Positions 36,920-47,766 of a stretch of 64,000 nt of DNA are shown piece by piece. The translations under genes were made by a program, and so were the position numbers. The DNA lies in the sequence record OP168898.1; one strand, written 5' to 3'. This DNA is from Escherichia phage ZCEC14. The number at the start of each line of letters is the position of its first letter. The stretch's first letter is position 1. Under the pieces are notes generated by a model. It searched no databases and was not told where the DNA came from. It saw nothing but the letters and a program-made list of their open reading frames with translations.

Positions 36920-37381
36920 ATGACTATCAACACAGAAGTTTTTATCCGTCGAAATAAGCTCCGTCGTCACTTTGAGTCGGAGTTTCGTCAAATTAACAAT
37001 GAGATTCGTGAGGCATCAAAAGCAGCAGGAGTCTCATCGTTTCATCTAAAATATTCTCAGCATCTTCTTGACCGCGCAATTCAACGGGAGATTGATGAGA
37101 CATACGTTTTTGAATTATTCCATAAAATAAAAGACCATGTTTTAGAAGTTAATGAATTCCTAAGTATGCCTCCGCGTCCTGACATTGACGAGGATTTTAT
37201 TGATGGGGTTGAATATCGTCCTGGACGTTTAGAAATCACAGATGGAAATCTTTGGCTTGGATTTACAGTTTGTAAACCTAACGAGAAGTTCAAAGACCCG
37301 TCACTTCAATGTAGGATGGCAATTATCAACAGTCGTCGTTTACCAGGAAAGGCTTCTAAAGCAGTAATTAAAACTCAATGA
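36920..37381 (+). CDS. regB: Site-specific endoribonuclease RegB
   Basis: 153 aa as T4 RegB; basic N-terminus; position between vs block and denV side. Confidence 0.8.
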   Translation: MTINTEVFIRRNKLRRHFESEFRQINNEIREASKAAGVSSFHLKYSQHLLDRAIQREIDETYVFELFHKIKDHVLEVNEFLSMPPRPDIDEDFIDGVEYRPGRLEITDGNLWLGFTVCKPNEKFKDPSLQCRMAIINSRRLPGKASKAVIKTQ

Positions 37382-37388
37382 GGTAAGC

Positions 37389-37934
37389 ATGAGAAAAGCA
37401 CTACTCGCTGGTCTATTGGCCATTTCAATGATGGCACATAGCTCCGAGCATACTTTCAGTAATGTCCAACTCGATAACATGCGTTACGCGTATCAATTCG
37501 GGGAACAATTTTCTAAGGATGGAAAATATAAAACACATAAAAATATCCACAAGAGCGGATTAGGTCATATAATGGCTGCTATTTTATGGCAAGAAAGCTC
37601 TGGCGGAGTTAATTTAAAATCTAAACCAAAGCATCACGCCTACGGAATGTTCCAAAATTATTTGCCTACTATGCGAGCAAGAGTTAAGGAACTTGGTTAT
37701 AATATGACCGATGCTGAAATAAAAAGAATGTTGAATAAACGATCCAATTCAGCTTCCTGGGCGTACATTGAACTTTCTTATTGGTTAAATATACATAAGG
37801 GCGATATAAGAAAAGCAATATCCTCTTATAATTCGGGATGGAATGTTAAAGCAGGTTCTAAATATGCTTCTGAAGTCCTAGAAAAGGCTAATTACCTTAA
37901 AAATAATAAACTTTTGGAAATAGTAAATGACTAA
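37389..37934 (+). CDS. Secreted lytic-transglycosylase-like protein (vs.1-like)
   Basis: 181 aa with N-terminal signal peptide MRKALLAGLLAISMMAHS; position of T4 vs.1. Confidence 0.55.
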   Translation: MRKALLAGLLAISMMAHSSEHTFSNVQLDNMRYAYQFGEQFSKDGKYKTHKNIHKSGLGHIMAAILWQESSGGVNLKSKPKHHAYGMFQNYLPTMRARVKELGYNMTDAEIKRMLNKRSNSASWAYIELSYWLNIHKGDIRKAISSYNSGWNVKAGSKYASEVLEKANYLKNNKLLEIVND

Positions 37935-38274
37935 AATTTTGGTTTTATGTATAGGATTAATTTCATTTTCTGCTTCTGCGTCAGCAGATACATCATATAC
38001 TGAAATTAGAGAATATGTAAACCGCACTGCGGCAGATTATTGTGGGAAAAATAAAGCATGCCAAGCTGAATTTGCACAGAAATTAATATATGCATATAAA
38101 GACGGAGAAAGAGATAAATCAAGCAGATACAAAAACGATACATTATTAAAACGATATGCTAAAAAGTGGAATACTTTAGAATGTTCAGTTGCGGAGGAGA
38201 AAGATAAAGCCGCTTGTCATTCAATGGTTGACCGTTTGGTAGATTCTTATAATCGAGGATTGAGTACTAGATGA
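37927..38274 (+). CDS. vs: Valyl-tRNA synthetase modifier-like protein (vs-like) with signal peptide
   Basis: 115 aa, matching T4 Vs length and position; N-terminal hydrophobic signal. Confidence 0.5.
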   Translation: MTKILVLCIGLISFSASASADTSYTEIREYVNRTAADYCGKNKACQAEFAQKLIYAYKDGERDKSSRYKNDTLLKRYAKKWNTLECSVAEEKDKAACHSMVDRLVDSYNRGLSTR

Positions 38275-38738
38275 TTGTAAAATATATCAAGGGCGATATT
38301 GTCGCCCTTTTCGCTGAAGGTAAAAATATTGCGCATGGATGCAATTGTTTTCATACTATGGGTTCAGGCGTAGCGGGTCAATTAACCAAAGCTTTCCCTA
38401 AAATTTTGGAAGCTGATAAATTACAGACTGAATGGGGTGATGTAACTAAACTCGGTTCTTACTCAGTCTATGAAAAATACTTTAGGACTCATAAAGCGTA
38501 TTGCTTCAACCTTTATACTCAATTTCAACCAGGGCCAAATTTTGAGTATTCCGCTTTAATGAATTGTATGTTAGAATTAAATGAGTTTGGTGAAAATAAA
38601 CTGATTAAACCTACAATCTATATGCCTAGGATTGGTGCAGGCATAGGTAAAGGGAACTGGGATATTATTGAGGGGATTTTAGATACGTATTCCTCTAAAT
38701 TAGAAATTGTGATTGTTGATTGGGAACCGTTATTATGA
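38271..38738 (+). CDS. Macro domain (ADP-ribose-binding/processing) protein
   Basis: N-terminal IKGDIVALFAEGKNIAHGCNCFHTMGSGVAGQL resembles the macro-domain signature; 155 aa. Confidence 0.6.
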   Translation: MIVKYIKGDIVALFAEGKNIAHGCNCFHTMGSGVAGQLTKAFPKILEADKLQTEWGDVTKLGSYSVYEKYFRTHKAYCFNLYTQFQPGPNFEYSALMNCMLELNEFGENKLIKPTIYMPRIGAGIGKGNWDIIEGILDTYSSKLEIVIVDWEPLL

Positions 38739-38947
38739 ATATACATTATCCACATCCATATGACCCAAAGAATAAGGCAGTAATTATTCGTCAATGGGAA
38801 CGCATTTGTCGTACTAAATGTCCAATTAATAGTCCACATGATGTAGATAAAGATTACATTGGAACATTCGTTGAATATACCTTTATTGATAAGAAAGGTC
38901 GTAAACAGCACGTAGAAGAATACTGCTTAAAGGTGACATGGTTATGA
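38720..38947 (+). CDS. Hypothetical protein (75 aa)
   Basis: Overlapping ORF chain; no motif. Confidence 0.45.
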   Translation: MGTVIMNIHYPHPYDPKNKAVIIRQWERICRTKCPINSPHDVDKDYIGTFVEYTFIDKKGRKQHVEEYCLKVTWL

Positions 38948-39150
38948 GTCAAACTAGTATTCTTAAAAATGCCCACTGTGAAAAGTGTAAATGGCCGGTT
39001 GTTTTTGCTTTATGCAACGATGAAATGGCTTGTGATTTCGATTATTGGTGCTATTGTTCTAATAAAGGATGCATCAATCATAAAGGTGAAGGATTTTATT
39101 CGGGATTTTATCCTTATCCAGAATTCGTTAAAGAAGGTAAACCGAAATGA
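38938..39150 (+). CDS. Hypothetical Cys-rich small protein (70 aa)
   Basis: Cys pattern CEKCKW...CNDEMACDFDYWCYCSNKGC suggests a metal-binding fold. Confidence 0.45.
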   Translation: MVMSQTSILKNAHCEKCKWPVVFALCNDEMACDFDYWCYCSNKGCINHKGEGFYSGFYPYPEFVKEGKPK

Positions 39151-39320
39151 ATAGTTCTGAGCTACAATATGAAGTGTCACGTGAACTTGATAATTTAATT
39201 GAACTCGCTGCTAATAAAGGTTTTGCCATTGGAATTGGTCAAAAAGATACTGATCATTTAACTATGGAAATATTTAAGCAAAAGCGAATTATTTTAAAAC
39301 TTCTGGAAATTAATATATGA
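39147..39320 (+). CDS. Hypothetical small protein (57 aa)
   Basis: ATGA overlap with upstream stop; below ORF-track cutoff. Confidence 0.4.
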   Translation: MNSSELQYEVSRELDNLIELAANKGFAIGIGQKDTDHLTMEIFKQKRIILKLLEINI

Positions 39321-39502
39321 GCCTAAGCAAAGAACAAAAAGACAAACTCTTTTCTCTTATCCACGAAGTTATGGATAAAAATAGTGAATTGGAAAAAGTT
39401 TGTAATGAATGCGGTCCTTTTAGCGCAAATGAATACGAAGAACTTTCCAAAGAATTTGATAATAAAGAACAAGAACTCATTAATTATATAAATTCCTTAT
39501 GA
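39317..39502 (+). CDS. Small helical protein, member of tandem ~60-aa paralog family
   Basis: 61 aa; shares xEQxxKh...helix...YLExL pattern with 39499, 41498, 41704, 41888, 42226. Confidence 0.5.
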   Translation: MSLSKEQKDKLFSLIHEVMDKNSELEKVCNECGPFSANEYEELSKEFDNKEQELINYINSL

Positions 39503-39687
39503 TTACTCGCGAACAAAAGAACGAAATATTATTTTTAGTTGGTGAAATTATTAGTTTAGAAAAGGATTTGTCTTTTGAATTATCTTCTGATTATGGAGAT
39601 GCCGAAACATATTACGAATTAGTAAAATCTATCGATAAAGCTGAAAATGATTTAGAAACATATTTAGAAAATTTAACTAAGGACTAA
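39499..39687 (+). CDS. Small helical protein, member of tandem ~60-aa paralog family
   Basis: 62 aa; MITREQKNEILFLVGEII...DLETYLENL. Confidence 0.5.
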   Translation: MITREQKNEILFLVGEIISLEKDLSFELSSDYGDAETYYELVKSIDKAENDLETYLENLTKD

Positions 39688-39688
39688 A

Positions 39689-40270
39689 ATGGCGAGTTTA
39701 ATTTTTACTTATGCAGCAATGAATGCTGGAAAATCTGCTTCTCTTTTGACTGCTGCACATAATTATAAAGAACGCGGAATGAGTGTATTAGTTCTTAAGC
39801 CTGCTATTGATACTCGCGACTCTGTCTGTGAAGTCGTTTCTCGCATTGGAATTAAGCAGGAAGCGAATATTATCACAGATGATATGGATATTTTCGAGTT
39901 CTATAAATGGGCTGAAGCACAAAAAGATATTCATTGTGTATTTGTAGATGAAGCTCAGTTTTTAAAAACTGAACAGGTGCATCAATTAAGCCGAATTGTT
40001 GATACATATAATGTTCCTGTTATGGCTTATGGATTAAGGACTGATTTCGCTGGAAAATTATTTGAAGGTTCTAAAGAACTTTTAGCGATTGCAGATAAAC
40101 TTATTGAACTAAAAGCAGTTTGTCATTGCGGTAAAAAAGCGATTATGACAGCTCGATTAATGGAAGATGGAACACCAGTTAAAGAAGGTAATCAAATCTG
40201 TATTGGTGATGAAATTTATGTTTCTTTGTGTAGAAAACATTGGAATGAATTAACTAAAAAGCTCGGTTAG
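39689..40270 (+). CDS. tk: Thymidine kinase
   Basis: 193 aa as T4 Tk; P-loop MNAGKSASLL, C-terminal Zn-binding CHCGKKA...C motif. Confidence 0.9.
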   Translation: MASLIFTYAAMNAGKSASLLTAAHNYKERGMSVLVLKPAIDTRDSVCEVVSRIGIKQEANIITDDMDIFEFYKWAEAQKDIHCVFVDEAQFLKTEQVHQLSRIVDTYNVPVMAYGLRTDFAGKLFEGSKELLAIADKLIELKAVCHCGKKAIMTARLMEDGTPVKEGNQICIGDEIYVSLCRKHWNELTKKLG

Positions 40271-40312
40271 TGCAAAAGTTATAAATAGGTTTATCTAACT
40301 AAAGGGGTATAT

Positions 40313-40525
40313 ATGTTACAATTAACTGAAAAGCAACTTCGCAATCTTACTGTGCTTCAATTAGATGAAATTCGTAGGGAAGTTGGAAATATCATTTCAG
40401 CTTTGCGTCGAGAAGTATCACTCAACCAATCTCCGGCAGACTATACTAGATTGCGAAATTTTGAAAAATACCTTGATAAAGTTAAGGCCGTGCATCGGCA
40501 CAAAGTAAATACAGGACAAAAATGA
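40313..40525 (+). CDS. Hypothetical protein (rI.1 position), 70 aa
   Basis: Small ORF between tk and rI. Confidence 0.5.
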
Positions 40526-40537
40526 TAGGAGGCCTTT

Positions 40538-40831
40538 ATGGCCTTAAAAGCAACGGCACTATTTGCCATGCTAGGATTGTCATTTGTTTTATCTCCATCG
40601 ATTGAAGCGAATGTCGATCCTCATTTTGATAAATTTATGGAATCTGGTATTAGGCACGTTTATACACTTTTTGAAAATAAAAGCGTAGAATCGTCTGAAC
40701 AATTCTATAGTTTTATGAGAACGACCTATAAAAATGACCCGTGCTCTTCTGATTTTGAATGTATAGAGCGAGGCGCGGAGATGGCACAATCATACGCTAG
40801 AATTATGAACATTAAATTGGAGACTGAATGA
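40538..40831 (+). CDS. rI: Lysis inhibition regulator RI (signal-anchor periplasmic protein)
   Basis: 97 aa; MALKATALFAMLGLSFVLSPSIEANVDPHFDKF recognised as T4 RI. Confidence 0.85.
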   Translation: MALKATALFAMLGLSFVLSPSIEANVDPHFDKFMESGIRHVYTLFENKSVESSEQFYSFMRTTYKNDPCSSDFECIERGAEMAQSYARIMNIKLETE

Positions 40832-41214
40832 AATTCAGCGACTTTTCACAAAGTGGAAAACCTTCGAAGGCAGATGAATACTTAGGTTTATTAATGGCTG
40901 CACAAGCTTATTTTCATTCTGCGCATTTTGAAACTAAAAATTATGCTAGACACAAAGCATACGATTTTATTTTCTCCGAGTTGCCAGATTTGATTGATAA
41001 ATTTGGTGAACAATATTTGGGGTATTCTGGTAGAAAATACACACCTTCAATTCCAGATGCCAGTAAACTTCCTACCGACACAATTAAAATGATTGATCGC
41101 ATATTAGACCAATCTAACAGCATTTATAAAGAAATGCCTCCAGCCATCCAAAGCACGATAGATGATATTACTGGAATGTTTTACCAGAGTAAGTATCTTC
41201 TTTCCCTCGAATAA
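40828..41214 (+). CDS. Hypothetical protein (rI.-1 position), 128 aa
   Basis: ORF immediately after rI followed by strong terminator. Confidence 0.5.
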
Positions 41215-41218
41215 CATT

Positions 41219-41242
41219 AGTCTCCTTCGGGAGACTTTTTTC
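41219..41242 (+). terminator. Rho-independent terminator
   Basis: AGTCTCC-TTCG-GGAGACT hairpin followed by TTTTTTC. Confidence 0.8.
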
Positions 41243-41251
41243 ATTTTACCG

Positions 41252-41281
41252 GTTTACTTTCCGTTTGAGCTGTGGTATTAT
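41252..41281 (+). promoter_or_regulatory. T4-type early promoter
   Basis: GTTTAC 41252-41257, TGGTATTAT extended -10, RBS AAGAGGAGAACATCATG. Confidence 0.6.
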
Positions 41282-41309
41282 ACAACTATCGGATAAAGAG
41301 GAGAACATC

Positions 41310-41498
41310 ATGAAAATTGAAGCACTCAATCAAGAAGGAAATATCTACGTCATCATTAATGGTGATTTTTTCGTCGACATGGATGAAGTTACTAGTGAAG
41401 AACTTGTAGAAGTTCTTAAGAAACGCTATAGTATGTGTGATGAAGCTGCAACTCATATGGCGTGTGCAATATTCTCTCTTTCATATGTGGTGGAATAA
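41310..41498 (+). CDS. Hypothetical small protein (62 aa)
   Basis: First ORF after early promoter. Confidence 0.5.
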
Positions 41499-41701
41499 TG
41501 ATTAGTATTGAACAAGCAGATAAAATTAAAGAATTGGTAGCTTTAATTCGCAAAGCAGATGAGGAACTTAGTGACTTTGCTTGGTTTTCGGCAGGCATTG
41601 CAAATAAAGGTATTGAAGAATTTGAAGCTAAAGTTGATAATGCTGTAGAAGCTTTAGATATGTTTCTTGATGAAATTATCGATCACAATACGAGAGTTTA
41701 A
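41498..41701 (+). CDS. Small helical protein, paralog family member (67 aa)
   Basis: [24 protein letters not shown]...; ATG 41498 overlapping upstream stop. Confidence 0.45.
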   Translation: MISIEQADKIKELVALIRKADEELSDFAWFSAGIANKGIEEFEAKVDNAVEALDMFLDEIIDHNTRV

Positions 41702-41703
41702 GT

Positions 41704-41898
41704 ATGCTGACACACGAACAGTTTGAAAAAATCATTAAATTAGCACGTGATGTTGAAATAGATTCATATCAATTAGCAGTTGAGCATTGTGAAGGATATT
41801 CATACGAAGGTATAGCAGCAGCTAAAAGAGATTTGGATAAATCTAAAGCTAAGTTAGTTCAATATCTTGAAATGATTAGGTGGAATAATGAAAACTGA
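41704..41898 (+). CDS. Small helical protein, paralog family member (64 aa)
   Basis: MLTHEQFEKIIKLARDVEID...LVQYLEMI. Confidence 0.5.
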   Translation: MLTHEQFEKIIKLARDVEIDSYQLAVEHCEGYSYEGIAAAKRDLDKSKAKLVQYLEMIRWNNEN

Positions 41899-42061
41899 AA
41901 AGCAGATGTTTTTAATGAAGCTAATTGAAGAATATGCTAATGCAGTTTCTGACTATGAGTGTTCTTCTAGGGAAAGAGGCATAGCTTTTGCAAAGGAAGA
42001 AATGAAAATCATGGTTGATGCTCACACAAAACTCCAGAATTTTATTGAAAACGTCATTTAA
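41888..42061 (+). CDS. Small helical protein, paralog family member (57 aa)
   Basis: MKTEKQMFLMKLIEEYANAV...; below ORF-track cutoff. Confidence 0.4.
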   Translation: MKTEKQMFLMKLIEEYANAVSDYECSSRERGIAFAKEEMKIMVDAHTKLQNFIENVI

Positions 42062-42063
42062 TG

Positions 42064-42094
42064 GTTTACAAGTTGGCAAGGTTATGGTATAGTA
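42064..42094 (+). promoter_or_regulatory. T4-type early promoter
   Basis: GTTTACA 42064-42070, TGGTATAGT -10, RBS AAGGAGAAGAGAATG. Confidence 0.5.
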
Positions 42095-42225
42095 ATCTTG
42101 CCAACTGCCAAGGAGAAGAGAATGAAAGTTTTGTTTGTTGTGTATGTGATGATTCAATATAATTACCCAATGTTTACTTATAATCTGGTGAACAACATTA
42201 TTGATATTATTCAAAGGAGCATGTA

Positions 42226-42411
42226 ATGACAAGTGAGCAGGCTTTTAAATTAAGAGAATTAATTGAGATGTATAGTAAAGCTGTTCATGCATCAACAGTT
42301 ATTGATGAATCAGCTTTCTCCGGACATGCTAATAAGATTAAATACAAAACTCTTATGGAAGAAGCTAAAGTAAATCTTGATTCTTATATTGAAACTTTAA
42401 TTGGTGAATAA
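42226..42411 (+). CDS. Small helical protein, paralog family member (61 aa)
   Basis: MTSEQAFKLRELIEMYSKAV...LDSYIETLIGE. Confidence 0.5.
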   Translation: MTSEQAFKLRELIEMYSKAVHASTVIDESAFSGHANKIKYKTLMEEAKVNLDSYIETLIGE

Positions 42412-42412
42412 C

Positions 42413-42679
42413 ATGAGCTTTCCTAAATTAGAAGTAGGCGATTTAGTCTTAACAAAATTGTGGAATGATGCTCAATCAGTAGAAATCTGTCAATATCGTG
42501 GAGCAACAGGTAATTTGATGTACACGATTTATAACCCAGAAATTTTGTTAGAGTGTCATTTGGAACGCTTTATAAAAGACACCGATAGTATGCCTTATAG
42601 TGTATCGATTGTACGTAAATCTGATACAAAGGAATACTCTAAAATTTTAGAACAAATTCATGCCAATAAAAAGGATTAA
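42413..42679 (+). CDS. Hypothetical protein (88 aa)
   Basis: ATG 42413; ORF-track start 42401 is GTG. Confidence 0.5.
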   Translation: MSFPKLEVGDLVLTKLWNDAQSVEICQYRGATGNLMYTIYNPEILLECHLERFIKDTDSMPYSVSIVRKSDTKEYSKILEQIHANKKD

Positions 42680-42680
42680 T

Positions 42681-43211
42681 ATGAAACGATTAGTACTAGA
42701 AGTTAGTTCACTTTTTGGTGAATTGGCTATAGAAAAAGTAAATAATATGTATCGTTTGACGCAAGAAGACGATATGCTATATTTTACGCCTAGCGAAATT
42801 ATTCATTTAACCCAAATTGAAAAACCATACACTGATAAAATTGTAAGCATTAATGATGAGCATAAAATTCATTTTTATTCTTTATGCCCAGGATTTAATA
42901 TTGAAAGCGAGTCAATATGCTTATCAATTAATAATTGGGATAATTTTATAGCTAAGATTAAATATTTCTATTATTCTAATGAAAGAAAACATGGTTTAAA
43001 ATGGTTTAAAAATTGCAATGCTATTATTACTAACGCTTGTAATCAAAATTATGAAACTGTTTTAAATGTATCAAAATGCTATGAAGAGGGAGATGTCTTA
43101 ACTATTCGTCAATCGGTAAATGATGTTAATGTTGTTGTATTAAACAAAGAAGAAGCTGTTTTATTAAAGACTTATCTTGATTCTGTCATTCCAACTATGA
43201 TTTCAAAGTGA
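42681..43211 (+). CDS. Hypothetical protein, paralog A (176 aa)
   Basis: C-terminus ...EEAVLLKTYLDSVIPTMISK parallels the next ORF. Confidence 0.5.
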   Translation: MKRLVLEVSSLFGELAIEKVNNMYRLTQEDDMLYFTPSEIIHLTQIEKPYTDKIVSINDEHKIHFYSLCPGFNIESESICLSINNWDNFIAKIKYFYYSNERKHGLKWFKNCNAIITNACNQNYETVLNVSKCYEEGDVLTIRQSVNDVNVVVLNKEEAVLLKTYLDSVIPTMISK

Positions 43212-43217
43212 GGAAAT

Positions 43218-43739
43218 ATGTTTATTTCAAGTGAAAGTGGTTTAATTCGTGTTGAATTTAAAAATGACATCTTCCTTATTCAAGGAGATGATAATATTAA
43301 AATGAGTTATGACGAAATTAAGAAAATTTGTCATGCTCTTGAAAGTCATGGAAAAGTAAATGCTACTATCGATATAGGCGATTTATGGGTGACACTTTAT
43401 GAAGTATCCGAAGGATTTAACATTGAAGATGAAAACAACATCTTAGCTATTGATAAAAGAAGTGATTTGTTTGATGTGTTAAAAGTTTATGAACAGTCAA
43501 ACGGTGGAAGAAAAGCCGTATTAATTTATCAAAAACCGCATTCATGTGGAACTGCTTCAATCATTTCAAATATTGAAGATGAAACTGATACTTATATGTG
43601 TGTTTTGAAAGCTGGCCGTGACCGTCATCCGGATTTTATTTCTATTCGTCAAAACAATGAAGAAATTTCATTATCAAAATCAGAAGCTGAAGCTATGATT
43701 AAGTATTTAACAACTGTTACACCTTCAATGAAAGGATAA
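43218..43739 (+). CDS. Hypothetical protein, paralog B (173 aa)
   Basis: C-terminus ...SEAEAMIKYLTTVTPSMKG parallels the preceding ORF. Confidence 0.5.
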   Translation: MFISSESGLIRVEFKNDIFLIQGDDNIKMSYDEIKKICHALESHGKVNATIDIGDLWVTLYEVSEGFNIEDENNILAIDKRSDLFDVLKVYEQSNGGRKAVLIYQKPHSCGTASIISNIEDETDTYMCVLKAGRDRHPDFISIRQNNEEISLSKSEAEAMIKYLTTVTPSMKG

Positions 43740-43741
43740 TT

Positions 43742-44203
43742 ATGATTATTAATGAAAGCTCTTGGCACTATAAATTATTCAAAATGTTTAATGATGAATG
43801 GAAACGGCCTAAGACACTATGCGCGTATTTTTGGTCTATTGTTATTCCTACATTTTTCGTTTCTTTTTTCGGATGTACTATACTCGCAGGTCTAACTATC
43901 ATCTGTGCAGAAATCATACAGAAATGGTTTATTTTTGGTAGTTTATGGACTCTTATTCCATCAGCATTTGTACTTGCCATTTTGCTTGTTTTACTTATTA
44001 TTGGTTCATTTGTTATTCCTGCACAACTGCATGAAAAATATAAAGATTATAAATGGAAAAAGGATTATGCTTTACATGTAGAAAATATTGATAGGGCGTA
44101 TAAAGGTTTACCTCCTATTCAACCCAAGAAATCTATTATCGTCGAATTTTTAAAAGCTCGTAAAGCTAAAGTATGTCCTGTTATTGAATATAAGGCTGAA
44201 TGA
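43742..44203 (+). CDS. Integral membrane protein (153 aa)
   Basis: Three to four hydrophobic TM helices. Confidence 0.5.
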   Translation: MIINESSWHYKLFKMFNDEWKRPKTLCAYFWSIVIPTFFVSFFGCTILAGLTIICAEIIQKWFIFGSLWTLIPSAFVLAILLVLLIIGSFVIPAQLHEKYKDYKWKKDYALHVENIDRAYKGLPPIQPKKSIIVEFLKARKAKVCPVIEYKAE

Positions 44204-45213
44204 TGAAAACAGTAATGAAAAGCTATTTTGGTAGTCATCTTTATGGAACTTCTACTCCAGAATCTGATGTAGATTTTAAAGAAATCTTTGTTCCTCCTGC
44301 TCGCGATATTCTTATCGGAAATGTTAAAGAGCATATGAGTAAAAACACTAACAACACATCATCTAAAAACACTAAAGATGATATTGACCATGAACTATAC
44401 AGTCTTAAGTATTTCTTTAAATTAGCAGCAGACGGTGAAACTGTAGCATTGGATATGCTTCACACTCCGCCTGAACTAGTAGTTAAATCTGATTTGCCTG
44501 ATGTATGGAAATTTATCCAAGACAATCGTTCACGGTTTTATACAACTAACATGAAAGCCTATTTAGGATATGTGCGCAAGCAAGCTTCTAAATATGGTGT
44601 TAAGGGTTCTCGTTTGGCTGCATTGCGTAATGTATTGAAAGTAGTTAATCAAATCCCCGATCAGTGGGTTGATTACCGAGAAGATGGAACACAAGGACAA
44701 CGTCGTACTAAAATTGTAGATATTAAACATCGGCTTCCTGAAAACGAGTTCTGTGAATGGGTATTCCATAACCACGAGAAAACAGGTCCTCAAACGTTCT
44801 ATACTGTTCTTGGACGTAAGTACCAAACCACCTTGTCTTTAATCGAGCTCAAGCAATCTCTGAATAAGCTCGATGCGGAATATGGTGAACGTGCTCGTAA
44901 GGCTGAAGCTAATGAAGGTATTGACTGGAAAGCTCTGAGTCATGCTTATCGCGCAGGGTATCAATTGATGGAAATCTACCAAACAGGTGATTTGGTGTTC
45001 CCATTGCGCGAAGCCTCTATCATTAAGCTGATTAAAGCCGGTGAATTACCATTTAAAGAAGTTCAAGAACTTCTTGAAGATACTGTTGATTTGGTTGAAG
45101 TCCTAGCCATCCAGGCAGCTAAGAACGGTATGCCTGATAAGGTAGACATGAAGTTCTGGGACAAGTTCGTTGAAGAGGTATATCTTGAAAACCACCGAAG
45201 TTATTATAAATGA
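44200..45213 (+). CDS. Nucleotidyltransferase-fold protein (Pol beta-like), 337 aa
   Basis: Motif GSHLYGTSTPESDVDF (hG[GS]...DxD) plus downstream acidic ALDMLH. Confidence 0.55.
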   Translation: MMKTVMKSYFGSHLYGTSTPESDVDFKEIFVPPARDILIGNVKEHMSKNTNNTSSKNTKDDIDHELYSLKYFFKLAADGETVALDMLHTPPELVVKSDLPDVWKFIQDNRSRFYTTNMKAYLGYVRKQASKYGVKGSRLAALRNVLKVVNQIPDQWVDYREDGTQGQRRTKIVDIKHRLPENEFCEWVFHNHEKTGPQTFYTVLGRKYQTTLSLIELKQSLNKLDAEYGERARKAEANEGIDWKALSHAYRAGYQLMEIYQTGDLVFPLREASIIKLIKAGELPFKEVQELLEDTVDLVEVLAIQAAKNGMPDKVDMKFWDKFVEEVYLENHRSYYK

Positions 45214-47238: not shown

Positions 47239-47766
47239 ATGAACGCTAAAGATATTTTCAACTTGGTAAATTACAACGATGGCAAATTTAAATCTGAAGC
47301 GCAAAGCAAGTTCTTTAACGACATCTCAATCGGAGGTGAAATCACTGTTGATGGAGGACAAATTTACAAATCCCGTTGGAATTGGATCGTTATTATTGAT
47401 GAGATCGGTATTGTAGAAATTTACAAGAATACGAATAAAAATCGTACATTACACTGGTCTCGTGATACTAACGAACAGTACAAAAAGGATAAAGCATCTA
47501 AAATGTCTCGTGTAACTCAAGAAGATATTGAGTTCATCAAGAAAGATATTTTAATGTATGATAACTTAATTGCTGAAGAGCAAGCTGTTATTGATAAATT
47601 TGACGAGATTAAAGCTTCTCGTGAAATTCCTGATTTTATGAAAGAATCAGTAAATGAACGATACTCTCTCATTTCAGAGCGTATTGAAACTTACAAAAAG
47701 CAAAGAGCTGAACGCCAAAATACTCTTCGGAAGTTTGAAGAACGGTTAAAGACGGTACTCGCATAA
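47239..47766 (+). CDS. Hypothetical protein with C-terminal coiled coil (175 aa)
   Basis: ORF directly after early promoter. Confidence 0.55.
   Translation: MNAKDIFNLVNYNDGKFKSEAQSKFFNDISIGGEITVDGGQIYKSRWNWIVIIDEIGIVEIYKNTNKNRTLHWSRDTNEQYKKDKASKMSRVTQEDIEFIKKDILMYDNLIAEEQAVIDKFDEIKASREIPDFMKESVNERYSLISERIETYKKQRAERQNTLRKFEERLKTVLA

What the first reader, a model, noticed from the sequence alone, without database searches (positions are those of the whole stretch)
39317..42411. Tandemly amplified family of ~60-aa helical proteins
At least six small ORFs (39317, 39499, 41498, 41704, 41888, 42226) share a pattern: a short N-terminus with (S/T)xEQxxK, a hydrophobic helix, an acidic middle and a C-terminal (D/N)LxxY(L/I)E motif. 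They lie in two clusters flanking tk and rI. Such local amplification of a tiny helical domain suggests a diversifying binder or inhibitor family.
Basis: seen in the sequence. Interest (0 to 1): 0.5.

Follow-up and report, generated by a model that had tools for sequence, protein, structure and literature searches.

The report
Small helical-hairpin protein family in T-even phage
Six tiny early genes around the thymidine kinase gene of this T6-like phage are true, anciently diverged copies of one two-helix protein family (already catalogued as DUF7438), dispensable in the laboratory and still without a known function.

Summary
The window is a T6-like Tequatrovirus (97% identical to T6). The six ORFs are the known genes tk.2, tk.1, mobD.4, mobD.3, mobD.2a and the RB14ncORF101c homologue. 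All six pass the gathering threshold of Pfam DUF7438. A leave-one-out HMM ranks each left-out member first among 686 window ORFs, and 7 of 15 pairs beat shuffles on their own. AlphaFold models of two members are confident 60-residue helical hairpins, and the proteins are acidic (pI 4.2-5.3).

The copies share 12-30% identity and no DNA repeats. Three of them (tk.2, tk.1, mobD.2a) have a named orthologue in Mosigvirus, and one copy sits upstream of tk in five phage lineages. The duplications are therefore ancient. Orthologues are under purifying selection (pN/pS 0.05-0.46), not diversifying selection. Copy number varies from 4 to 6 among Tequatrovirus genomes.

The genes lie in early transcription units. 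In T4 and Bas37 they are non-essential in CRISPRi and transposon screens. I found no study that assigns them a function.

My best guess is a family of scaffold-conserved, surface-diversified protein binders that act on the host early in infection. That mechanism is inferred, not shown. The finding is an already catalogued family of modest interest.

The parts
39317..39502 (+). tk.2 homologue, 61 aa, DUF7438 member. Its ATG overlaps the stop of the upstream ORF (ATGA).
   Evidence: Pfam DUF7438 E 3.9e-19. phrog_653. RB14 annotation tk.2. AF2 helical hairpin H5-30/H37-60, pLDDT 91.5. pI 4.5.
39499..39687 (+). tk.1 homologue, 62 aa, DUF7438 member. It overlaps the tk.2 stop (ATGA) and ends 1 nt before the tk start.
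   Evidence: Pfam E 4.6e-15. phrog_653. RB14 annotation tk.1. pI 4.15. Junction sequences.
41498..41701 (+). mobD.4 homologue, 67 aa, DUF7438 member. Its ATG shares a base with the mobD.5 stop (TAATG).
   Evidence: Pfam E 8.9e-17. phrog_653. RB14 and T6 annotate this ATG start. SD-like GGTGGA upstream.
41704..41898 (+). mobD.3 homologue, 64 aa, DUF7438 member.
   Evidence: Pfam E 2.9e-15. phrog_653. RB14 annotation.
41888..42061 (+). mobD.2a homologue, 57 aa, DUF7438 member. It overlaps the end of mobD.3 by 11 nt.
   Evidence: Pfam E 6.7e-14. phrog_2758 with a cross-hit to phrog_4859. RB14 annotation.
42226..42411 (+). RB14ncORF101c homologue ('nc101'), 61 aa, DUF7438 member. It is absent from T4, AR1 and pSs-1.
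   Evidence: Pfam E 5.4e-15. phrog_4859 with cross-hits to 653 and 2758. AF2 hairpin H3-28/H34-60, pLDDT 84.8. Presence/absence in other phages.
41219..41236 (+). Terminator-like hairpin after rI.-1. It separates the tk/rI unit from the mobD.5 unit.
   Evidence: Consensus scan. The same element is annotated as a terminator in phage OE5505.
41253..41281 (+). T4-type early promoter (GTTTAC ... TG-n-TATTAT) in front of mobD.5, mobD.4, mobD.3 and mobD.2a.
   Evidence: Scan and sequence. A mobD.5 promoter transcript is documented in T4 (PMC1702504).
42065..42093 (+). Second early-promoter-like site (TTTACA, 17 nt spacer, TG-n-TATAGT) in front of mobD.2 and nc101. A 14-nt inverted repeat (42071-42106) overlaps it.
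   Evidence: Its position matches T4 early promoter Pe57.9/Pe57954, named in PMC6024815, using the T4 gene coordinates.

Best explanation
The six ORFs are anciently diverged paralogues of one small protein family, Pfam DUF7438. In T-even nomenclature they are tk.2, tk.1, mobD.4, mobD.3, mobD.2a and RB14ncORF101c.

Shown here:
- They are real protein-coding genes under purifying selection.
- Two members give confident models of a cytoplasmic-type, acidic hairpin of about 60 residues with two helices. No profile hit suggests any added domain, and none of the sequences shows a hydrophobic stretch of membrane-segment length.
- The genes sit in early, translationally coupled transcription units.
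- Among phages whose names I could recover, the family occurs only in Tevenvirinae of Enterobacterales.
- Copy number varies between phages.
- The T4 and Bas37 homologues are individually dispensable on laboratory and several clinical E. coli hosts.

Inferred:
- The residues conserved across paralogues are the hydrophobic a/d core, two mid-helix alanines, an N-terminal T-x-E-Q helix cap and a few likely inter-helix salt-bridge positions. That set describes the scaffold.
- The exposed faces and the loop are specific to each paralogue but conserved among orthologues.
- I therefore think the proteins act as stoichiometric protein-binding modules early in infection. Each copy would have its own partner, most likely a host protein or defence component.
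- They may work as Rop-like antiparallel dimers (four-helix bundles).
- Partial redundancy between copies could hide single-gene phenotypes.

The identity and anatomy are near certain. The binding mechanism is a hypothesis.
For: Family membership: Pfam, PHROGs, leave-one-out HMM and shuffle test.

Fold: AF2 pLDDT of 91.5 and 84.8 for two divergent members, both helical hairpins.

Charge: pI 4.15-5.3, net charge -2 to -10.

Scaffold versus surface: column-by-column conservation over 29 sequences.

Coding status and selection: pN/pS 0.05-0.46. Orthologue groups extend into other genera.

Narrow, host-linked distribution: only 29 representatives at 50% identity among 1.84 billion proteins. All the named ones come from enterobacterial T-even-like phages.

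Early expression: canonical T4 early promoters at 41253-41281 and 42065-42093, plus start/stop overlaps. The literature documents the mobD.5 promoter and Pe57.9.

Accessory status:
- Copy number of 4-6 among Tequatrovirus genomes.
- A T4 deletion spanning nrdC.11 to mobD.3 is viable.
- CRISPRi-ART scores all five T4 members as 'Not Fit'.
- HIDEN-SEQ scores them as 'Non-essential' in T4 and Bas37.

Neighbourhood: genes shown experimentally to be anti-defence lie close by. These are tk.4/AdfM against DarTG2, the nrdC.8 homologue bas37_0203 against Druantia III, and nrdC.1 against Septu.
Against: No experiment links any member to a partner or a phenotype.

In the HIDEN-SEQ comparisons I read, the Bas37 members have log2FC within +/-0.33 and adjusted p = 1. 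The one T4 comparison I saw gives -0.13 to -0.50, also with adjusted p = 1. None is named as a hit against any defence system tested.

The helical hairpin is a generic fold. Foldseek gives no significant PDB match (best E 0.4), so structure does not point to a mechanism.

I could not test dimerisation, because no multimer prediction was available.

Guilt by association is weak in T-even genomes, where gene order is broadly conserved.
Confidence: 0.45

Rival explanations
1. The copy next to tk is an accessory or regulatory partner of thymidine kinase or the dNTP-synthesis machinery. The other copies would be diverged spares.
For: A DUF7438 gene lies between the macrodomain gene (tk.4) and tk in Tequatrovirus, Mosigvirus ZQ3, Klebsiella phage Mexia, Kanagawavirus PEi20 and Moonvirus KM16. 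In four of these it directly abuts tk, overlapping it or separated from it by at most 10 nt. In KM16 one further small ORF intervenes.
Against: Gene order is conserved across T-even phages in general. Four of the six copies sit 1.2-2 kb beyond tk, behind their own promoters. tk.1 is missing in AR1, OE5505, Bas35 and Bas37, which keep tk. tk itself is non-essential.
Confidence: 0.1
2. The ORFs are nearly functionless. They would be kept mainly as spacers that preserve translational coupling or mRNA structure in early operons, and are slowly being lost.
For: No phenotype in three genome-wide screens. Frequent loss, truncation and fusion occur: T4 lacks nc101 and has a 7-aa loop deletion in mobD.4, pSs-1 lacks nc101, and UFV-AREG1 carries a tk.2/tk.1 chimera. 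pN/pS is relatively high for tk.1 (0.46) and nc101 (0.37).
Against: Every pN/pS is below 1, and four of the six are at or below 0.18. Protein-level conservation persists across genera after DNA similarity has faded. Two members give confident folded models.
Confidence: 0.12
3. The proteins are Rop-like four-helix-bundle nucleic-acid binders that regulate phage or host RNA.
For: Rop (1rop, 4do2) is among the structural look-alikes, with TM 0.84 over 59 residues. Alanines at mid-helix core positions resemble an Alacoil-type antiparallel packing (the Alacoil link is an inference from my own knowledge).
Against: All six proteins are acidic, with net charge -2 to -10. The Foldseek E-value is 1.5-3.6, which is not significant. 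No Pfam Rop hit appears at E <= 1.
Confidence: 0.05
4. This is a recently amplified arms-race family under positive, diversifying selection.
For: Several copies sit side by side, and copy number varies between phages.
Against: Paralogues share 12-30% identity and no DNA repeats. Orthologues are 85-92% identical between genera for tk.2 and tk.1. pN/pS is below 1 for every member.
Confidence: 0.04
5. The proteins are cytoplasmic accessories of lysis inhibition, like RIII, because they flank the antiholin gene rI.
For: Only adjacency to rI. T4 RIII is, from my own knowledge, a small helical cytoplasmic protein.
Against: No similarity to rIII or rI.1 in the HMM and hhalign scan of the whole T6 genome. 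Klebsiella phage Mexia keeps one copy next to tk, about 1.7 kb from rI.
Confidence: 0.03
6. The resemblance is chance or compositional, arising from AT-rich, Glu/Lys/Leu-rich small ORFs.
For: Some individual pairs are not significant on their own (z 0.7-2.2).
Against: An independent curated Pfam model hits all six far above threshold. Leave-one-out ranking succeeds for every member. Seven pairs have z >= 4.3, against a control mean of 0.35.
Confidence: 0.01

Closest known systems
Pfam PF24219 (DUF7438); PHROGs 653, 2758 and 4859; T4 genes tk.1, tk.2, mobD.2a, mobD.3, mobD.4 and RB14ncORF101c
   Same: The window proteins are members. They give full-length HMM matches above threshold, have the same length, sit at the same genomic positions, and the DNA is about 95-97% identical to T6, RB14 and T4.
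   Different: Nothing material. This genome carries the full set of six, whereas T4 has five and AR1, Bas35 and Bas37 have four or five. The family has no assigned function.
Rop (ColE1 repressor of primer), a helical-hairpin dimer
   Same: A two-helix antiparallel hairpin of about 60 residues. TM-score 0.84 over 59 aligned residues.
   Different: No sequence relationship: 12-14% identity, Foldseek E 1.5-3.6, and no Pfam Rop hit. The proteins here are acidic, which argues against RNA binding. The oligomeric state is unknown.
Small early T4 proteins that bind host proteins, such as AsiA, and the neighbouring anti-defence genes tk.4/AdfM, nrdC.8 homologue and nrdC.1
   Same: Early expression, small size, dispensability on laboratory hosts, and location in the same variable early region. 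The comparison with AsiA comes from my own knowledge.
   Different: No sequence or specific fold similarity. No defence system or host target has been matched to any DUF7438 gene.
T4 gp59 helicase loader (the label carried by phrog_4859 and several RefSeq records)
   Same: Only the annotation string.
   Different: A 61-aa hairpin against a protein of about 220 aa. BLASTP against T6 gp59 gives E 0.88 over 8 residues, and no gp59 Pfam domain matches. The label looks like an annotation artefact.

Membership tests
Pfam DUF7438 (PF24219) | Full-length match to the family HMM above the gathering score of 25 bits | tested here: met
   All six score 52.4-69.2 bits, E 7e-14 to 4e-19, covering profile positions 1-57.
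Pfam DUF7438 (PF24219) | Stand-alone protein of about 55-67 aa with no other domain | tested here: met
   Lengths are 57-67 aa. No other Pfam or NCBIfam hit reaches threshold. Library representatives are 57-67 aa, apart from fragments, read-through fusions and two very long proteins (2130 and 2761 aa). One of those is visibly repetitive and I treat both as spurious.
Pfam DUF7438 (PF24219) | Two-helix hairpin fold shared by divergent members | tested here: met
   tk.2 model: pLDDT 91.5, H5-30/H37-60. nc101 model: pLDDT 84.8, H3-28/H34-60. These are predictions, not solved structures.
PHROG 653 and its sister PHROGs 2758 and 4859 | Best hit to one of these profiles, with cross-hits linking the three | tested here: met
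   tk.2, tk.1, mobD.4 and mobD.3 hit phrog_653. mobD.2a hits phrog_2758. nc101 hits phrog_4859. Cross-hits range from 7.8e-6 to 1.6e-3.
T4 gp59-type helicase loader (label of phrog_4859) | Sequence similarity to gp59 or its Pfam domains | tested here: not met
   BLASTP of nc101 against T6 gp59 gives E 0.88. No gp59 family appears among Pfam hits at E <= 1.
Molybdopterin-guanine dinucleotide biosynthesis 'MobD' (label on mobD.4-like proteins in RefSeq) | Match to a Mob or molybdenum-cofactor family model | tested here: not met
   No such Pfam or NCBIfam hit. The name appears to be a collision with the T4 gene name mobD, a homing endonuclease.
Rop family | Sequence match to Rop, and a dimeric four-helix bundle that binds RNA | tested here: not met
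   No Pfam Rop hit. The Foldseek E-value is not significant. The acidic pI argues against RNA binding. The oligomeric state could not be tested with these tools.
Phage anti-defence proteins (a functional class) | Loss of the gene sensitises the phage to a specific defence system | tested here: inconclusive
   Published single-gene screens show no effect on K-12. The same holds in the comparisons I read against clinical isolates or cloned defence systems, and no member is named as a hit. Redundancy among 4-6 paralogues has not been addressed.
Recent tandem gene amplification | Copies similar at the DNA level, with lineage-specific expansion | tested here: not met
   No DNA repeats link the copies. 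Paralogue identity is 12-30%, while cross-genus orthologues reach 44-92%.

The most novel reading that the evidence does not exclude
The DUF7438 paralogues are a partly redundant battery of small acidic inhibitors. Each would block a different host defence or housekeeping protein, possibly as homo- or hetero-dimeric four-helix bundles. Their importance would be invisible in single-gene screens because the copies cover for one another, or because the relevant host factors are missing from the strains tested.
Probability: 0.25. Interest if true: 0.55.

Novelty: already known. Interest (0 to 1): 0.25.

Why it matters
T4 and its relatives are among the best-studied viruses, yet about half of their early genes have no function. 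This family accounts for five or six of those genes per genome. It lies in a region that recent transposon screens show to be dense in anti-defence genes.

If the family proves to be a set of host-directed binders, it would add several new phage-host interaction pairs at once. It would also show how a minimal two-helix scaffold can be re-surfaced for different targets.

As it stands, the finding mainly confirms an existing database family. It also corrects three misleading annotations: 'helicase loader', 'MobD molybdopterin biosynthesis' and 'kilA anti-repressor'.

Tried and rejected
1. Seventh member. HMM and hhalign scans of all ORFs of 30 aa or more in the window plus the rest of T6 found none. 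pseT.1 is a weak look-alike (E 0.0085) but has no Pfam hit. rI.1 gives an out-of-register Smith-Waterman z of 4.5 to tk.1, but hhalign probability is below 1%. I rejected both as members.

2. Distant homologues. The word-indexed search returned only close orthologues.

3. Function from structure. PDB sequence profile search found nothing below E 0.1. Foldseek against PDB and BFVD returned only generic hairpins and uncharacterised T4-like phage proteins. The afdb50 library was not available.

4. Literature. There are zero papers on DUF7438. Gene-name searches returned only lists, a deletion map, a primer and promoter note and a DksA paper. Miller et al. 2003 is not held.

5. The Druantia III inhibitor bas37_0203. 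I checked whether it was a family member, because bas47_0203 is one. It is not. It is the nrdC.8 homologue of 175 aa.

6. Natural tandem fusions, to test whether two hairpins pack together. The longer database hits are read-throughs or frameshifts, not two-hairpin fusions.

7. RNA elements. Rfam found nothing at E <= 0.1 in 37000-45000.


Full report
**What the window is**

The 3.6 kb around the finding is 97.4% identical to phage T6 and 96-97% identical to RB14 and many other Tequatrovirus genomes. T4 aligns at 96.5% over the part it shares. The + strand of the window is the direction of early transcription.

By the RB14 annotation the local gene order is:

- vs.1, vs, tk.4, tk.3, two RB32-type ORFs, tk.2, tk.1, tk
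- rI.1, rI, rI.-1
- mobD.5, mobD.4, mobD.3, mobD.2a, mobD.2
- RB14ncORF101c, RB14ncORF100c, mobD.1

The six ORFs of the finding, with the ORF coordinates, are:

| Gene | Coordinates | Length |
|---|---|---|
| tk.2 | 39317-39502 | 61 aa |
| tk.1 | 39499-39687 | 62 aa |
| mobD.4 | 41498-41701 | 67 aa |
| mobD.3 | 41704-41898 | 64 aa |
| mobD.2a | 41888-42061 | 57 aa |
| RB14ncORF101c homologue ('nc101') | 42226-42411 | 61 aa |

**Is the family real?**

Yes. The curated Pfam model DUF7438 (PF24219) matches all six from end to end at E 4e-19 to 7e-14, two to three times the gathering score.

PHROGs splits them into phrog_653 (tk.2, tk.1, mobD.4, mobD.3), phrog_2758 (mobD.2a) and phrog_4859 (nc101). 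Cross-hits tie the three groups together.

- An HMM built from any five members ranks the sixth first among the 681 remaining stop-to-stop ORFs of the window (E 5e-8 to 7e-3). The next ORF is always at E >= 0.03.
- In Smith-Waterman scores against 2000 shuffles, 7 of 15 pairs have z >= 4.3 (at most 7 of 2000 shuffles reach the score). These pairs connect all six proteins.
- The mean z is 3.5, against 0.35 for comparisons with five neighbouring small ORFs.

Pairwise identity is nevertheless low, at 12-30%. Over 29 diverse family members the conserved columns are as follows:

- M1, [IL]2, [TS]3, E5, Q6, K9, [LI]10, L13, [IV]14, a hydrophobic residue at 17, A20, [DE]23 and L24 in the first half.
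- E40, a hydrophobic residue at 45, D46, A48, L52, [YF]55, [LIV]56, E57 and [LI]59 in the second half.

There are exactly six members in this genome. HMM and hhalign scans of every ORF in the window plus the remaining 105 kb of T6 find no seventh. pseT.1 and rI.1 are weak look-alikes that fail profile tests.

**Anatomy**

AlphaFold2 gives confident helical hairpins for two of the most divergent members:

| Member | Mean pLDDT | Helices |
|---|---|---|
| tk.2 | 91.5 | 5-30 and 37-60 |
| nc101 | 84.8 | 3-28 and 34-60 |

The conserved hydrophobic positions follow a 3-4 heptad spacing, with an extra position near the open end of the hairpin (13/14 and 55/56). Alanines sit at mid-helix core positions 20 and 48.

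The conserved polar residues are mostly the N-terminal T-x-E-Q (a helix cap, by inference) and residues placed to bridge the two helices (K9 with E57, by inference). So what the paralogues share is the scaffold. The loop and the exposed faces differ between paralogues but are conserved within each orthologue group.

The proteins are acidic, with pI 4.15-5.3 and net charge -2 to -10. None has a second domain at threshold, and none of the sequences shows a hydrophobic stretch long enough for a membrane segment.

Fold searches return only generic hairpins. Examples are an NMR structural-genomics protein, designed helical bundles, FrmR/CsoR, DUF683 and Rop, with best E 0.4. The BFVD search returns uncharacterised small proteins, the top-ranked ones from phages of enterobacteria. 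A profile search of PDB sequences finds nothing. Structure therefore gives the fold but not the function.

**Expression**

A terminator-like hairpin (41219-41236) follows rI.-1. It is followed by a canonical T4 early promoter (GTTTAC, then TG-n-TATTAT, at 41253-41281) in front of mobD.5. A transcript from the mobD.5 promoter has been mapped in T4 (PMC1702504).

A second early-promoter-like site (42065-42093) lies between mobD.2a and mobD.2/nc101. It corresponds in position to T4 early promoter Pe57.9, whose downstream genes rise at least twofold without DksA (PMC6024815; T4 coordinates).

Starts and stops overlap or abut along both clusters:

- ATGA at the orf110c/tk.2 and tk.2/tk.1 junctions.
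- TAATG at the mobD.5/mobD.4 junction.
- An 11-nt overlap between mobD.3 and mobD.2a.
- One nucleotide between tk.1 and tk.

This is the usual signature of translational coupling in T4 early operons. No Rfam family matches the region.

**Evolution: old copies, not a recent amplification**

No DNA repeat links the six genes.

Each window paralogue is closer to a relative outside the window than to any sister copy in the window, where the maximum identity is 30%:

| Window paralogue | Closest outside relative | Identity |
|---|---|---|
| tk.2 | Mosigvirus ZQ3 gene | 85% |
| tk.1 | Mosigvirus ZQ3 gene | 92% |
| mobD.2a | Mosigvirus ZQ3 gene (a closer unnamed relative, P0099, is 70% identical) | 44% |
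| mobD.4 | P0122 (source phage not identified) | 56% |
| mobD.3 | P0125 (source phage not identified) | 62% |
| nc101 | P0118 (source phage not identified) | 43% |

A strong member lies between the macrodomain gene tk.4 and tk in five lineages: Tequatrovirus, Mosigvirus ZQ3, Klebsiella phage Mexia, Kanagawavirus PEi20 and Moonvirus KM16. PEi20 and KM16 also have weaker hairpin-like ORFs at the position after rI.-1 (E 3e-4 and 0.54). The two-cluster layout therefore predates at least the Tequatrovirus-Mosigvirus split.

The family is narrow. An exhaustive HMMER search of 1.84 billion cluster representatives finds only 29 with E <= 1e-3. All are about 60 aa apart from fragments and two very long proteins, one of them visibly repetitive, which I treat as spurious. 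Every representative that carries a name comes from a T-even-like phage of Enterobacterales.

Among nine Tequatrovirus genomes, pooled pairwise pN/pS values are as follows:

| Gene | pN/pS |
|---|---|
| tk.2 | 0.05 |
| mobD.2a | 0.06 |
| mobD.3 | 0.13 |
| mobD.4 | 0.18 |
| nc101 | 0.37 |
| tk.1 | 0.46 |
| tk (neighbour) | 0.015 |
| rI (neighbour) | 0.10 |
| mobD.5 (neighbour) | 0.22 |

The genes are therefore under purifying selection of ordinary to relaxed strength, not detectable diversifying selection.

Copy number does vary:

- Six copies in this window, T6 and RB14.
- Five in T4, which lacks nc101 and has a 7-residue deletion in the loop of mobD.4.
- Four or five in AR1, OE5505, Bas35 and Bas37, which have a single divergent tk.2 allele and no tk.1.
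- pSs-1 lacks nc101.

One database protein (phage UFV-AREG1) is an in-frame chimera of helix 1 of tk.2 and helix 2 of tk.1. This is what unequal recombination between adjacent paralogues would produce.

**What is known experimentally**

I found no study of the family. There is no paper on DUF7438, and the gene names occur only in lists. Genome-wide data exist, however:

- A CRISPR-based genome reduction of T4 recovered a viable deletion spanning nrdC.11 to mobD.3 (PMC9825161).
- CRISPRi-ART knock-down classifies T4 tk.1, tk.2, mobD.2a, mobD.3 and mobD.4 as 'Not Fit', meaning no fitness requirement (PMC11879866 supplement).
- HIDEN-SEQ transposon sequencing classifies the same five genes in T4, and bas37_0211, 0212, 0213 and 0219 in Bas37, as non-essential.
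- In the comparisons I read, the Bas37 genes have log2FC within +/-0.33 and adjusted p = 1. The one T4 comparison I saw gives -0.13 to -0.50, also with adjusted p = 1 (bioRxiv 10.1101/2025.11.20.689424 supplements).

That preprint also shows that nearby genes are anti-defence factors:

- tk.4 is AdfM, a macrodomain that neutralises DarTG2.
- nrdC.1 inhibits Septu.
- bas37_0203 inhibits Druantia III.

I checked that bas37_0203 is not a family member. It is the 175-aa nrdC.8 homologue, 98% identical to window ORF 47239-47766.

**Most likely mechanism**

The steps shown are:

- Real genes under purifying selection.
- Location in early transcription units.
- An acidic two-helix hairpin with no added domain and no membrane-length hydrophobic stretch.
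- A conserved scaffold with paralogue-specific surfaces.
- Accessory status and variable copy number.
- A distribution restricted to enterobacterial T-even phages.

The inferred step is that such a protein has no room for catalysis and is too acidic for nucleic-acid binding. The remaining way to act is by binding another protein stoichiometrically. An isolated 60-residue hairpin with a wide hydrophobic stripe would usually bury it by dimerising, as Rop does, or by docking on a partner.

I therefore favour a family of early, host-directed binding modules, one target per paralogue, with partial redundancy. My confidence in this mechanism is about 0.4. My confidence in the identity and anatomy is above 0.95.

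The rivals are listed with their tests in the Rival explanations section. They are a Tk-associated subunit, near-neutral filler ORFs, Rop-like RNA binders, RIII-like lysis-inhibition accessories, recent arms-race amplification, and chance. Chance and recent amplification are contradicted by the data here.

**Comparison with the known, and verdict**

The proteins are members of Pfam DUF7438 and PHROG 653 with its sister groups. They are homologues of named T4 and RB14 genes, and the paralogy is already encoded in those databases.

The labels attached to some members are not supported. These are 'helicase loader', 'molybdopterin-guanine dinucleotide biosynthesis protein MobD' and, in one T6 record, 'kilA anti-repressor'.

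Novelty is 'already known' and interest is modest. The open question is what the family does. It is testable with multi-copy deletions, interaction screens and multimer modelling.

Noticed in passing
window 38271-38738 (+): This is the tk.4 homologue, a macrodomain protein (Pfam Macro E 2.9e-6; weak NCBIfam DarG match). A 2025 preprint names T4 tk.4 as AdfM, an anti-DarTG2 factor. It sits three to four genes upstream of the first DUF7438 copy here. In Klebsiella phage Mexia and Salmonella phage KM16 it lies directly next to the DUF7438 copy.
   Followed up: partly
window 47239-47766 (+): This 175-aa ORF (nrdC.8 position) is 98% identical to Bas37 bas37_0203, which a 2025 preprint reports as a Druantia type III inhibitor. 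It is not related to DUF7438.
   Followed up: yes
window 42660-43211 and 43218-43739 (+): These two adjacent ORFs (mobD.1 and the RB32ORF097c-like gene) are paralogues of each other: 24% identity over 173 aa, E 1e-9. So a second tandem pair lies just downstream of the finding.
   Followed up: partly
window 42065-42106 (+): The early-promoter-like site between mobD.2a and mobD.2 is overlapped by a 14-nt inverted repeat (42071-42084 and 42093-42106, 93% complementary). The repeat brackets the -10 region. One related record (OE5505) annotates the same element as a terminator. Its role, whether promoter, terminator or regulatory hairpin, is unresolved.
   Followed up: no
window 42413-42679 (+); 38938-39150 (+); 40828-41214 (+): Other small neighbours belong to recently defined phage families: RB14ncORF100c is a Phage_tudor domain (E 3.5e-40), tk.3 is Phage_zn_bind (E 4e-29), and rI.-1 is DUF5856 (E 1e-32). 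The RefSeq label 'starvation-inducible transcriptional regulator' for rI.-1 was not checked.
   Followed up: no
L004 37379-37606 (-) (T6 pseT.1); window 40313-40525 (+) (rI.1): Two other small helical T-even proteins faintly resemble the family. pseT.1 has MISWHQFEHLKGLI at its N-terminus and LHDYIQSLVE at its C-terminus (HMM E 0.0085). rI.1 gives a Smith-Waterman z of 4.5 to tk.1. Neither passes Pfam or hhalign, so a very remote relationship is neither shown nor excluded.
   Followed up: partly
P0002 (Escherichia phage UFV-AREG1); L006 4684-4866 (T4 mobD.4); T4 RefSeq mobD.2a: Three structural variants of family members turned up. The first is a tk.2/tk.1 in-frame chimera. The second is a 7-residue loop deletion in T4 mobD.4. 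The third is a T4 RefSeq mobD.2a annotated at 117 bp (38 aa), although a recent T4 assembly and other T-evens carry the full 174-bp ORF.
   Followed up: partly
L002 (T6 record AP018814) and several RefSeq records: Homology-transfer annotations in this region are unreliable. In AP018814, nc101 is called 'kilA anti-repressor', its neighbours are 'XRE family regulator' and 'integrase', and small ORFs near tk are 'rI antiholin' or 'tail assembly protein'. Elsewhere mobD.4-like proteins are called 'molybdopterin-guanine dinucleotide biosynthesis protein MobD' and nc101-like proteins 'helicase loader'.
   Followed up: partly
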